From Escherichia phage Lys8385Vzw: a stretch of DNA of 50,953 nucleotides. Made by a program: the position numbers. The DNA is taken from the sequence record MT225100; one strand, written 5' to 3'. This document shows positions 24,001 to 27,000 of this stretch, one piece after another. Within the stretch, counting starts at the first letter, position 1, and each line of letters starts with the position of its first letter.

Positions 24001-27000
24001 CATCGTCATAACGCTTACTGATGCGTCGGGTTAATTCTTCCTTTAACGCATCCACAGCACCGTTTGGCATTTTAGTCATTTTTTCTTTGGCTATGCAGAT
24101 CTCAATACGCATAAAAGTCCCTCTATACTGTGTTTGTATACAGTATTATTTTTAACTGTATGGATAAACAGTGTCAAGAGGTCTTATTTCTGCTCCTTTG
24201 GAGCTCTTCAAAACGATTATGTAAAGATTTCGGATACAGTTCGGTATATACCTGCCATAGCACGTTTAATGAACGATGCCCTGTAACCTGAGCGACTTCC
24301 TCAATACTAAAACCAGCCTCAAATAAGCGACTTGCCCCTTCTCTACGCAAATCATGGTATCGCAGATCTTTAATACCTAATTTGCTTCTTACCCTCTGAA
24401 ATCCTGCAGTAACAGAAGTGCTGTTATATGGAAAAATGAATTCCGATTTTTTGGGCTGTCGTTGGACGATATCCCAGGCTTCCCCAAGCAAGGCTACTTT
24501 CATGTGGTTGCCTTCCTTTTTGCGTGGATCTTTCCTGTCTCTTACGAGTATAGATTTTTGTTCCTGGTCGAGATCTTCCCATCGTAACCGGCATACTTCT
24601 CCGATCCGCATACAGGACCACACAGAAAATTTGAGGATATCAACGAACGGAATTTTTGAGCATTTATGAGTAGATCGTTGTTGAAGGCCTTCAATGAGCA
24701 TGTCCAGTTCATCAGATGCTGGTCTACGATTACGACGGTTTGATTTACCAATCAAACCAAGTTTAAGTAGATATGGGCGAGCGCTTTTCGCTGGGTTTGA
24801 TGTGTAATTAATTCCATATACAGGTTTGGCAGCATCCAGAACACTGCCAAGATAACTAACATCGTGGCTAACTGTAGCTGGACCTGCACCAGCGTTGTTT
24901 CTTAGCCTGCAATGTTCAATTACGTCATTTTCTGTCAGTTCAGATAGTTTGATCGCGGAGATGTCACTATCCATAAGCAGTTCCAGCACATATCTTTTAG
25001 TACGGCCTGCTTTACCTCCGGCATTTGGGTCATTTAAATATTTGTGTAGTAAGTCACGGACTGTAAGTCCGTCAACTGCATTTGATGATGGAATGCCATA
25101 TAGATCTAATTCCATCACTTTCTGTGTGCCCCATGTTTTGGCATGAGCATGTTTAGGGAATGTTTTGCTTTCCCTGTAAGTGATAACACCTTTTTCTTTG
25201 ATAATCACATTACAGCGATAGCGTGGTGTGCCATCGGATTTTAGTCGTTTCTCTATGTTATAGTACGCCATTACACGACCTCGTTATTTCGGGTTCCCAT
25301 AAAACGTGGGAACCTGTGCGGGAACCTAACGCGAGAAAAATAGCCTGAAATGTTCAAAAATGCACGATAATCATGAAACACTAAAAATTAATCAAACCAG
25401 CGTGATGCCTGAAAAAACTGGTGTTTACTGGAATTCTCGGTTTAGCATTGCTCCCATGCTCGAATGCTCGATAGGATGTACCGTTTTTGAAAAACAACTA
25501 GTTATGCACTTTGTGGGAGCCTATTGGGAACCTGTTATTCTTAGAAAGCATCATTTGCTCATCACTTCAATTGACCATGGTTAAAGCCAGCTATAAACTT
25601 GACAAACGAGGTAACTGGTTGCTTAGGCCCAAGTGGGCACACCATAAGAAGCTCATGTTGGTGATGAAGCAACCCATGAAGTATCGAGAATAATTATAAA
25701 GTTCACTATCTTTGAGGTTTCTTATATGTTTTGCGAAGAAAAAGTAGCTCAAATGGCTGCATACCTACTTCTTAAGAGAGGTGGGCGCATGGCATATCTG
25801 AAATTGATGAAGCTGCTCTATCTGTCTAACCGCCAGTCGATTTTGAAGCATGGCAGGATGATCGGCGAAGATAGCCTTTACTCTATGAAATTTGGACCAG
25901 TCATGTCGAATACGCTGAACTTGATTCGCGGTAAGGCTGAAGGCATTGGTGACTACTGGTACAACTTGATAGAGACGAACGGGCATAATGTATCGTTGCG
26001 TTCAGATCCGAGGGAAATGGATGCAGACGAGGTCTTTGATGAATTGAGTCGTGCAGATATCCGGATTTTAGATGAAATCTATTCTCGGTATGGGCATATG
26101 AACCGATTTGATCTCGCAAATATGACGCATTTAGAAAGCGTTTGTCCAGAGTGGCACGATCCTGGCAATTCTCGTAAGCCTATAGACCTGAAAGAAATGC
26201 TGATCAGTGAGGGTAAAAGCGAGGATGAGGCTAATCGCATAATTGGCAAAATGGAAGAATCTCAGAAACTTAAGGAATTTTCTTTGCAATTATCATGACG
26301 GATTATCAGCCATACAGGAAAGGAACTGTGCTTGCCCCAACTGGACCATGCAATCATCTTCATGTGATTTGTAATGATCCTGTTTATTACCCCGTTAACG
26401 ATTGTTATTGTGTTTTAGTTGTTAATATTTCTAGTATCAAGGATGGTGTCCCCCACGATCCGTCTTGCGTCTTGAATTCTGGTGATCATCGCTTTATCAA
26501 GCATCCAAGTTATGTTGTTTACGCTGAAGCTATAATTTGGCGAGTGGATAACATGGTTAGAAAGCAGCGATCGGGTGAGATTTCTGTTCATGATGATATG
26601 CCAGAAGCTACATTCAATAGAATTCTGGACGGTTTTGATATCTCTGATGAAGTTACGCCAAAGAACCTTAAATTTAAAAATAAATATTGCGTATCATCTA
26701 TTGATGATGAGTAAACAACAGGAATTGTTTCGGTATAACTTCTGGAGTTTTCTATGGAAGATCAAAAAGCAACCAAGCCACAGGTTAAGTTCGACACAAT
26801 GAAAGCATTCGTAGGTATGGGTGCTGCTGTTGAAGTTCTGATGAAGGCTGCTCCTAATGCGTTCACTCACGCTACTGTCTCTGGTAAAGAGCAGCAGGGT
26901 AAGCTTCGTCGTCTCAAAGCAGCATGATCATAGCTGGTGCTTTTTGAAAACCCGCCTTCAGGCGGGTTTTTTCTTTAGTGATTTTCTTTGCCCTTCTGTT

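What the first reader, a model, noticed from the sequence alone, without database searches (positions are those of the whole stretch)
25726..26927. Int-proximal Panacea-domain (DUF4065) two-gene module: candidate toxin-antitoxin or anti-phage system
A 190-aa protein with a DUF4065/Panacea-like N-terminal pattern (KLLYL...GPV) is translationally coupled (ATGA overlap) to a 139-aa Cys/His-containing protein of unknown function, followed by a 57-aa ORF and a strong bidirectional terminator. The module is AT-rich, transcribed divergently from int, and occupies the int/early-left hotspot where prophages commonly carry defence or TA cargo. The partner protein matches no family I recognise.
Basis: partly seen in the sequence, partly recalled or inferred. 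Interest (0 to 1): 0.7.

Follow-up and report, generated by a model that had tools for sequence, protein, structure and literature searches.

The report
PanAT toxin-antitoxin on Stx1 phage
This two-gene module is a real toxin-antitoxin pair of an already described kind (a Panacea-domain antitoxin with a MazF-fold toxin of the published "T6" cluster), carried as swappable cargo by a Shiga-toxin-1 phage, so it is well supported but largely ordinary.

Summary
Window 25726-26298 encodes a 190-aa Panacea/DUF4065 protein (Pfam 70.9 bits against a cutoff of 25.7). It overlaps by ATGA a 139-aa ORF (26295-26714). A 57-aa ORF and a strong terminator follow.

In 24 of 24 usable loci from alpha-, beta- and gamma-proteobacteria, a Panacea gene lies immediately upstream.

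Corrections to the finding:
- The 57-aa ORF and the terminator are phage backbone. The swappable cassette is 25533-26740.
- The window is the cos-opened form of an Stx1a phage that integrates in dusA. In lysogens the module sits at attL, about 50 kb from int.
- PGAP's 128-aa start for the toxin is too short.
- No match to any PADLOC defence model and no reported defence phenotype were found.

Verdict: new member of a known kind, low-to-moderate interest.

The parts
25357..25464 (+). attP core: a phage-borne copy of the first 35 codons of dusA. It restores dusA after integration. Context, not part of the toxin-antitoxin pair.
   Evidence: Chromosomal homology with O103 RM8385 begins at 25357. 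PGAP annotates a 105-nt partial dusA at the equivalent position. A full-length dusA follows int at attR in the lysogen.
25533..26740 (+). Swappable cargo cassette: a 193-bp leader, panA and panT.
   Evidence: Homology with phage mEp460 stops at 25532 and resumes at 26741. mEp460 carries an unrelated 177-aa gene in between.
25571..25599 (+). Promoter-like site (TTGACC, 17-nt spacer, TAAACT) inside the cassette leader. Weak evidence only.
   Evidence: Consensus scan, 9 of 12 matches. The region holds no more such sites than shuffled sequence does.
25726..26298 (+). panA: a 190-aa standalone Panacea-domain antitoxin. GAGG ribosome-binding site 8 nt upstream of the ATG.
   Evidence: Pfam PF13274, 70.9 bits. 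AlphaFold pLDDT 93.3, folded throughout, with a C-terminal helix at residues 166-189. Non-synonymous to synonymous ratio 0.12-0.14.
26295..26714 (+). panT: a 139-aa toxin of cluster T6 with a MazF/Kid/CcdB fold. Conserved residues H21, D55, C58, H65. Its start overlaps the panA stop (ATGA).
26754..26927 (+). 57-aa ORF of unknown function (phrog_2741). Phage backbone, probably co-transcribed with the cassette but not part of it.
   Evidence: Retained at 97.9% nucleotide identity in mEp460, which lacks panAT. No homology to it was found downstream of panT in Kosakonia, and no such gene is annotated in PhiR40_1. PHROG hit.
26946..26971 (+). Intrinsic terminator that ends the rightward transcript. 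The same hairpin faces the leftward xis transcript but with a weak U-tract.
   Evidence: Scan hit: 11-bp stem with 6 G-C pairs. Plus strand -19 kcal/mol followed by U6CU3; minus strand -18.1 kcal/mol followed by U4C.

Best explanation
The two genes form a PanAT type II toxin-antitoxin pair of the published T6 cluster.

Proposed mechanism:
- panA and panT are transcribed rightward as one message that ends at the terminator at 26946-26971. They are probably translationally coupled through the ATGA overlap, because panT has no well-placed ribosome-binding site of its own.
- PanT is a MazF-fold protein that arrests growth by inhibiting translation, most likely as a sequence- or structure-specific endoribonuclease.
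- PanA is a standalone Panacea protein. It binds PanT directly and keeps it inactive.

Setting: the pair is swappable cargo on an Stx1a-converting lambdoid phage that integrates in dusA. In lysogens it lies directly beside attL, downstream of the truncated host dusA 5' end, with no predicted terminator in between. It could therefore be expressed from the host dusA promoter as well as from any promoter of its own.

Status of each step:
- Shown here: gene structure, the Panacea domain, the fold, family membership, conserved linkage, purifying selection and the cassette boundaries.
- Taken from the literature on a homologue: toxicity, neutralisation, complex formation and translation inhibition.
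- Inferred: RNase chemistry, translational coupling, read-through from the dusA promoter, and the biological role (prophage stabilisation and/or abortive-infection defence).
For: - Panacea domain well above the Pfam cutoff.
- ATGA overlap and a conserved PanT N-terminus that supports the ATG at 26295.
- Confident PanT model with the MazF/Kid fold by two methods.
- The PanT family has 2,679 representatives.
- In 24 of 24 usable loci from alpha-, beta- and gamma-proteobacteria, a Panacea ORF ends at or overlaps the PanT start. All 25 upstream ORFs, the window's included, hit PF13274.
- The homologue in strain 2016-Iso4 (55% identity) is WP_101821906.1, listed as a T6 PanT in Dataset S1. The overlaps found here for that strain (1 nt) and for Pantoea septica LMG 5345 (4 nt) match the dataset.
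- The T6 pair of P. moraviensis was toxic, neutralised, pulled down as a complex and specifically blocked 35S-methionine incorporation (PMC8832971).
- A Pseudomonas syringae pair has a PanT 45% identical to the window's.
- Standalone Panacea antitoxins neutralise their toxins directly (PMC10440598).
- Both genes are under purifying selection.
- No plus-strand terminator is predicted between dusA' and panA.
Against: - Nothing was measured for this E. coli pair.
- In Kurata et al., 8 of 25 tested PanTs were not toxic in E. coli, and some PanAs failed to neutralise their toxin.
- The validated P. moraviensis toxin sequence was not compared directly. The link runs through cluster membership and a P. 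syringae homologue.
- The MazF relationship is visible only at fold level. There was no PemK or CcdB Pfam hit even at E<=10 in 42 family members, and hhalign against E. coli MazF gave 0.2% probability.
- The family has no invariant Arg, so the catalytic mechanism of MazF and Kid is not obviously conserved.
- The promoter evidence is weak.
Confidence: 0.75

Rival explanations
1. The pair's main role is anti-phage defence. In the lysogen, a superinfecting phage would release or activate PanT, with Panacea acting as the sensor, and abort the infection. This concerns biological role and is compatible with the toxin-antitoxin mechanism above.
For: - It is prophage-borne cargo in a variable slot that holds a YafO toxin gene in PhiR40_1.
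- Fold relatives include the type III abortive-infection toxins CptN, ToxN and AbiQ.
- The NetFlax authors hypothesise that Panacea is a sensor, and note that toxin-antitoxin systems overlap with defence systems.
- Some distant loci lie next to methylase genes or Uma2 restriction-endonuclease-like genes.
Against: - No PADLOC model matches either protein, or the alternative cargo genes.
- No paper reporting a defence phenotype for PanAT T6 was found.
- The neighbours of distant loci are mixed and include ordinary metabolic genes.
Confidence: 0.3
2. The pair's main role is prophage addiction. Cells that lose the Stx1 prophage would be killed or arrested once the labile PanA decays, which stabilises lysogeny. 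This also concerns role only.
For: - It sits at the very edge of the prophage next to attL.
- The classical addiction role of toxin-antitoxin pairs on mobile elements is discussed for PanAT near transposons and prophages.
- The identical 139-aa toxin occurs on at least 1,000 contigs, and the region is present in 205 of 5,426 complete E. coli genomes.
Against: - There are no data on PanA lability or on prophage loss rates.
- Related phages do without it and carry other cargo in the same slot.
Confidence: 0.3
3. PanT is not an RNase. It could poison DNA gyrase as CcdB does, or it could use its conserved His/Asp/Cys/His cluster for a different, possibly metal-dependent, activity on a MazF scaffold.
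For: - The family-wide invariant residues are H21, C58 and H65, with D55 nearly so, and none is an Arg.
- There is no sequence-level similarity to PemK/MazF.
Against: - MazF and Kid score above CcdB in both structure searches.
- The T6 homologue inhibited protein synthesis specifically rather than DNA synthesis.
- Two histidines could serve as a general acid-base pair in an RNase (inference from general enzymology).
Confidence: 0.15
4. The pair is inactive or non-toxic in E. coli, carried as a neutral passenger.
For: 8 of 25 PanTs tested by Kurata et al. were not toxic in E. coli.
Against: - Both genes are intact and under purifying selection, with synonymous sites saturated.
- The pair is conserved as a unit across three proteobacterial classes.
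- The validated T6 toxin came from Pseudomonas yet was toxic in E. coli.
Confidence: 0.12
5. It is a SocAB-like type VI system, in which PanA acts as a protease adaptor that delivers the toxin to ClpXP instead of sequestering it.
For: SocA is the founding Panacea protein, and Kurata et al. note that the two modes need not exclude each other.
Against: - The NCBIfam SocA equivalog model scores 14.4 bits against a cutoff of 190.
- PanAT pairs, including the T6 pair, formed stable complexes, which is typical of type II systems.
- The partner has a MazF fold.
Confidence: 0.05

Closest known systems
PanAT cluster T6, validated by the Pseudomonas moraviensis pair PanA WP_083354365.1 / PanT WP_083201923.1 (Kurata et al. 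2022, PMC8832971)
   Same: - Standalone Panacea antitoxin upstream of a toxin of about 130-140 aa, with a 1- or 4-nt overlap.
- The same toxin family: accession WP_101821906.1 is in T6 and is 55% identical to the window's PanT.
- A similar PanA N-terminus (MIFSEQKVAQ against MFCEEKVAQ).
- The toxin is called MazF/PemK-like, by HHpred there and by fold search here.
   Different: - This copy is on an Stx1a-converting E. coli phage at the dusA attachment site. The validated pair was flagged 'NotPhage'.
- This pair is untested.
- Its identity to the P. moraviensis proteins was not measured. A P. syringae pair is 42% identical in PanA and 45% in PanT.
MazEF / Kid-Kis (PemIK) type II toxin-antitoxin systems
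   Same: - Antitoxin-first bicistron.
- Translation is the likely target.
   Different: - The antitoxin is a Panacea protein, not a MazE/Kis-type antitoxin.
- No sequence-profile similarity to PemK.
- No invariant Arg. The conserved residues are His, Asp, Cys and His, and there are two extra C-terminal helices.
SocAB (Caulobacter type VI toxin-antitoxin system)
   Same: The antitoxin carries the Panacea (SocA-like) domain.
   Different: - It is not a SocA equivalog (14.4 bits against a cutoff of 190).
- The toxin has a MazF fold, whereas SocB is a different kind of protein that targets the DNA sliding clamp (my own knowledge).
- Neutralisation is expected to be by direct binding.
Type III toxins ToxN, AbiQ and CptN (abortive-infection RNases)
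   Different: Those toxins are neutralised by RNA repeats. Here the antitoxin is a protein, and no defence phenotype is known.

Membership tests
PanAT (Panacea antitoxin plus toxin; Kurata et al. 2022) | The antitoxin carries the Panacea/DUF4065 domain (PF13274) above the Pfam gathering score. | tested here: met
   70.9 bits against a cutoff of 25.7, residues 27-137.
PanAT (Panacea antitoxin plus toxin; Kurata et al. 2022) | The conserved GPV signature motif of Panacea. | tested here: met
   G57 and P58 are invariant and V59 is at least 90% conserved in alignments A3 and A4. The window sequence reads FGPVMS.
PanAT (Panacea antitoxin plus toxin; Kurata et al. 2022) | [quoted passage not shown] | tested here: met
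   24 of 24 usable loci in three proteobacterial classes have a Panacea ORF ending at or overlapping the PanT start. The downstream genes are not conserved, and the 57-aa ORF is backbone.
PanAT (Panacea antitoxin plus toxin; Kurata et al. 2022) | The toxin inhibits growth, co-expressed PanA rescues it, and the two form a complex. | not testable with these tools
   Shown only for the P. moraviensis T6 pair in the literature.
PanT cluster T6 | Homology to a protein that the authors list in cluster T6. | tested here: met
   L008 PanT is WP_101821906.1, listed as T6, and is 55% identical to the window's PanT. The Pantoea septica LMG 5345 pair matches the listed -4 overlap.
MazF/PemK/Kid endoribonucleases (Pfam PF02452) | The MazF/Kid/CcdB fold: an SH3-like beta-barrel with a C-terminal helix. 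| tested here: met
   [not shown]
MazF/PemK/Kid endoribonucleases (Pfam PF02452) | A sequence-profile match to the PemK_toxin family. | tested here: not met
   No PemK or CcdB hit for any of 42 members, even at E<=10. hhalign against E. coli MazF gave 0.2% probability. The PDB profile search gave no MazF hit.
MazF/PemK/Kid endoribonucleases (Pfam PF02452) | The catalytic residues: Arg and Thr in MazF; Arg, Asp and His in Kid (my own knowledge). | tested here: inconclusive
   The family has no invariant Arg. The invariant residues are H21, C58, H65 and G113.
MazF/PemK/Kid endoribonucleases (Pfam PF02452) | Ribosome-independent cleavage of RNA. | not testable with these tools
   There is only indirect evidence: the T6 homologue blocks 35S-methionine incorporation.
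SocAB type VI toxin-antitoxin system | The antitoxin is a SocA equivalog (NCBIfam NF047745). | tested here: not met
   14.4 bits against a cutoff of 190.
Catalogued anti-phage defence systems (PADLOC-DB v2) | A match of either protein to a defence-system model. | tested here: not met
   No hits for PanA, PanT or the 57-aa ORF at E<=0.1.

The most novel reading that the evidence does not exclude
T6 PanT may be a MazF-fold toxin that has replaced the Arg-based catalytic centre of MazF and Kid with a conserved His/Asp/Cys/His cluster, possibly metal-dependent, and so may have a different chemistry or target. On this Stx1a phage the pair might also act as an abortive-infection or superinfection-exclusion system, sensed through Panacea. 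In the lysogen it could be driven by the host dusA promoter, because the cassette lies directly downstream of the truncated dusA at attL.
Probability: 0.15. Interest if true: 0.6.

Novelty: new member of a known kind. Interest (0 to 1): 0.3.

Why it matters
- The toxin family is large (2,679 representatives at 50% identity). It has no Pfam model and is annotated as 'hypothetical protein' throughout, and PGAP also truncates it at a wrong start. Linking it to PanT cluster T6 and to the MazF fold gives about 200 complete E. coli genomes, including O103 and O157 Shiga-toxin-producing strains, a usable annotation.
- The cassette rides on an Stx1a-converting phage. A toxin-antitoxin pair there could affect lysogen stability, exclusion of other phages, or induction behaviour, and therefore Shiga toxin carriage. 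None of that has been tested.
- The conserved His/Asp/Cys/His cluster on a MazF scaffold is a modest biochemical question.
- Beyond these points, the finding adds an instance to a published class.

Tried and rejected
- Pfam, NCBIfam and PADLOC scans of the partner found nothing meaningful. The weak ICMT and DapC hits are short, far below their cutoffs, and were rejected as chance.
- A PDB sequence-profile search with the family alignment gave only insignificant hits.
- hhalign of the family profile against E. coli MazF was not significant, and a permissive Pfam scan of 42 members showed no recurring PemK or CcdB signal. The MazF link therefore rests on fold alone.
- The RefSeq accessions of the E. 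coli pair were not found in the stored supplement of Kurata et al. That file was cut when stored, so their absence means little.
- A genome scan with the broad alignment A2 failed for lack of a conserved stretch. The narrower A1 worked.
- The validated P. moraviensis toxin did not appear in the top 120 named hits, so it was never compared directly.
- PanA has no relative in the PDB by fold or by sequence.
- No convincing operator-like inverted repeat was found upstream of panA.
- I rejected the idea that the 57-aa ORF is a third component of the system.
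Full report
**Observation.** The ORFs are as described.
- A 190-aa ORF lies at 25726-26298 and a 139-aa ORF at 26295-26714, both on the plus strand.
- The stop codon of the first (TGA, 26296-26298) overlaps the start of the second (ATG, 26295-26297).
- The first protein matches Pfam PF13274 (SocA_Panacea) at 70.9 bits, against a gathering score of 25.7, over residues 27-137.
- The second has no significant Pfam, NCBIfam or PADLOC match. It hits only PHROG 19071, of unknown function.
- A 57-aa ORF follows at 26754-26927 (phrog_2741, function unknown).
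- A terminator hairpin lies at 26946-26971. It folds at -19 kcal/mol with z = -3.8 and is followed by U6CU3 on the plus strand. On the minus strand the same hairpin is followed only by U4C, and the scan did not call a terminator there.
- The module's GC content is 37-44%, against 46-50% in the early-left genes to its right. The AT-richness is real but mild.

**Start codon of the partner.** RefSeq (PGAP) annotates this gene as 128 aa starting from a GTG at window 26328, which removes the overlap. In an alignment of 35 homologues the N-terminus MTxYxPYRKGT is conserved upstream of that GTG, with P6 at least 90% conserved and G10 invariant. The nearest AGGA lies 18 nt upstream of this ATG (read). 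Translation probably depends on coupling to panA, which is an inference.

**What the partner is.**
- The word-indexed search found only 62 clusters, all from gamma-proteobacteria.
- An exhaustive profile search found 2,679 representatives at 50% identity with E<=1e-3, and 914 with E<=1e-10. This is a large family with no Pfam model: none of 42 diverse members hit any Pfam family.
- AlphaFold2 gave a confident model (pLDDT 90.5, pTM 0.84) with a beta-barrel core followed by helices.
- The top 50 Foldseek matches in the PDB are all MazF, Kid or PemK toxins (probability 0.91-1.00).
- At sequence level the relationship is invisible. hhalign against E. coli MazF gave 0.2% probability, and a permissive Pfam scan showed no recurring PemK or CcdB signal.
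- Across the wide family the invariant residues are H21, C58, H65 and G113. D55, G63, F67, S72, Y76 and S117 are at least 90% conserved. No Arg is invariant.

**Link to the literature.** Kurata et al. 2022 (PMC8832971) named DUF4065 'Panacea' and described PanA antitoxins paired with 88 clusters of putative toxins.
- Their cluster T6 is labelled 'EndoA/PemK/MazF-family RNases' by HHpred.
- T6 contains the Pseudomonas moraviensis pair, which they validated. The toxin was toxic in E. coli and was neutralised by its PanA. The two proteins were pulled down as a complex. The toxin specifically inhibited 35S-methionine incorporation.
- Dataset S1 lists T6 pairs in Pantoea septica LMG 5345 (overlap -4) and in 'Yersiniaceae bacterium 2016Iso4' (overlap -1, toxin WP_101821906.1).
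- My genome scan found homologues of the window's partner in exactly those two strains, at 56% and 55% identity, with overlaps of 4 nt and 1 nt.
- An exact look-up showed that the 2016-Iso4 homologue is WP_101821906.1. The partner is therefore a T6 PanT.
- A Pseudomonas syringae PanA (42% identical to the window's) is followed immediately by a 132-aa gene that is 45% identical to the window's PanT (E = 6e-35). The family therefore reaches the genus of the validated pair with the same gene order.
- I did not compare the P. moraviensis toxin itself.

**Linkage and selection.** Of the 26 loci found, 24 had usable upstream sequence. They come from alpha-, beta- and gamma-proteobacteria. In every one, an ORF of about 185-200 aa ends at or overlaps the PanT start, and all of these ORFs hit PF13274. 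Against the Kosakonia and Pluralibacter orthologues, non-synonymous differences are 0.08-0.11 per site while synonymous sites are saturated at about 0.78. Both genes are therefore constrained coding sequences. At greater distances PanT stays more conserved than PanA (63% against 55%, and 56% against 44%).

**PanA.** The model is confident (pLDDT 93.3) and folded throughout, with a long C-terminal helix at residues 166-189. It has no N-terminal DNA-binding or accessory domain. No solved structure resembles it by fold or by sequence. The NetFlax study (PMC10440598) reports that standalone Panacea antitoxins neutralise their toxins directly, and proposes that Panacea may act as a sensor.

**Genomic setting.** The window is a complete lambdoid phage genome opened at cos.
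- Terminase-sized ORFs lie at 230-2451, the same sizes as the annotated terminase subunits of the colinear O103 prophage. A CI-like repressor gene is at 32687-33340.
- An RIP-family gene at 41960-42916 is stx1A. The stx1AB region is 100% identical to BP-4795 and other Stx1a phages.
- The integrase (24174-25271, minus strand) targets dusA. Window 25360-25464 is a copy of the first 35 codons of dusA.
- In the O103 strain RM8385 chromosome the colinear prophage is about 51 kb. It runs: truncated dusA 5' end, panA, panT, orf57, xis and onward to Q, stx1a, lysis, terminase, tail, NleG, DinI, int, then full-length dusA.
- So 'int-proximal' holds only for the phage form. In a lysogen the module lies at attL, at the opposite end of the prophage from int. 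It sits directly downstream of the host dusA promoter and the truncated dusA, with no predicted plus-strand terminator in between. Read-through from that promoter is an inference.

**Cassette boundaries.**
- Phage mEp460 shares the flanks: window 25200-25532 at 93.7% identity and 26741-27400 at 97.9%. It carries an unrelated 177-aa gene instead of panAT, and it keeps the 57-aa ORF, the terminator and the PrtN-family excisionase.
- The swappable unit is therefore 25533-26740. The 57-aa ORF is backbone.
- In Kosakonia, the region homologous to the terminator and xis follows panT directly.
- Other phages hold different cargo in this slot. PhiR40_1 has a YafO toxin gene (Pfam 76.5 bits) preceded by a 179-aa gene. 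Phage 1720a-02 has a 182-aa gene of unknown function.
- None of these alternative cargo genes hits PADLOC.
- About 742 of 5,426 complete E. coli genomes match part of the region, and 205 carry at least 80% of it.

**Mechanism and role.** The best-supported reading is a type II PanAT pair. PanA binds and inactivates PanT, a MazF-fold translation inhibitor that is probably an endoribonuclease.
- The RNase step is inferred from the fold and from the labelling result on the homologue.
- The conserved His, Asp, Cys and His residues, and the lack of a conserved Arg, leave room for a different catalytic arrangement or for a structural metal site. I could not test whether these residues cluster in three dimensions.
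- The biological role, whether prophage addiction, abortive-infection defence or both, is open. I found no defence-model match and no paper reporting a phenotype.

**Verdict.** The module is a new member of a published class and does not represent a new kind of system. Its interest lies in three things: an unannotated but very large toxin family, a wrong start codon in RefSeq, and its carriage on Stx1a phages.

Noticed in passing
window 41960-43200 and the whole window: The window is a complete, cos-opened Stx1a-converting lambdoid phage. The gene at 41960-42916 is RIP-family (stx1A), and the stx1AB region is 100% identical to phage BP-4795 and to many other Stx1a phages. The colinear prophage in E. 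coli O103 RM8385 is annotated stxA1a/stxB1a.
   Followed up: yes
window 24174-25464; L001 4004-4108; L034 38077-40300: The phage integrates in dusA and carries a copy of the first 35 codons of dusA next to int. attP lies between xis (26975-27283) and int, so in the lysogen int and xis end up at opposite ends of the prophage, about 50 kb apart. How excision is coordinated was not examined.
   Followed up: partly
window 26295-26330; L001 4964-5350: RefSeq/PGAP annotates the toxin as 128 aa from an internal GTG (WP_014640052.1). This drops 11 conserved N-terminal residues and hides the ATGA overlap with panA.
   Followed up: yes
window 26754-26927: A 57-aa ORF (phrog_2741, function unknown) with a good GGAG ribosome-binding site. 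It is conserved as phage backbone in mEp460 (gp24) whatever cargo lies upstream, and it shares the terminator with the cassette.
   Followed up: partly
window 21790-23540: Type III effector cargo lies near the other end of the prophage: an NleG-family gene (22620-23540, minus strand; Pfam 161 bits) and a 201-aa ORF (21790-22395) with no Pfam hit. In the O103 prophage a frameshifted 'EspS' gene is annotated just upstream of nleG7, at what appears to be the position of the 201-aa ORF. This stretch has low GC (33-41%).
   Followed up: no
L031 222-1212 (phage PhiR40_1): The same attP-to-xis slot holds a YafO-family toxin gene (Pfam 76.5 bits) preceded by a 179-aa gene annotated 'YafM antitoxin'. 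That gene has no Pfam or PADLOC hit and may be an uncharacterised antitoxin.
   Followed up: partly
models m596d43a7151c and mf1491de9d8f8: No solved PDB structure resembles the Panacea protein by fold or by sequence, although its AlphaFold model is confident (pLDDT 93.3). The PanT family of 2,679 representatives has no Pfam model.
   Followed up: yes
window 43800-45632: A 610-aa gene downstream of stx1 has a sialate O-acetylesterase domain (SASA) plus DUF6645. It is intact in the window, but the O103 RM8385 copy is annotated as a pseudogene with an internal stop.
   Followed up: no
P0017 (Proteus PanT cluster): The listed GenBank accessions for this one Proteus PanT sequence include three with the same AYY8 prefix. 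That hints at several identical copies in one genome.
   Followed up: no
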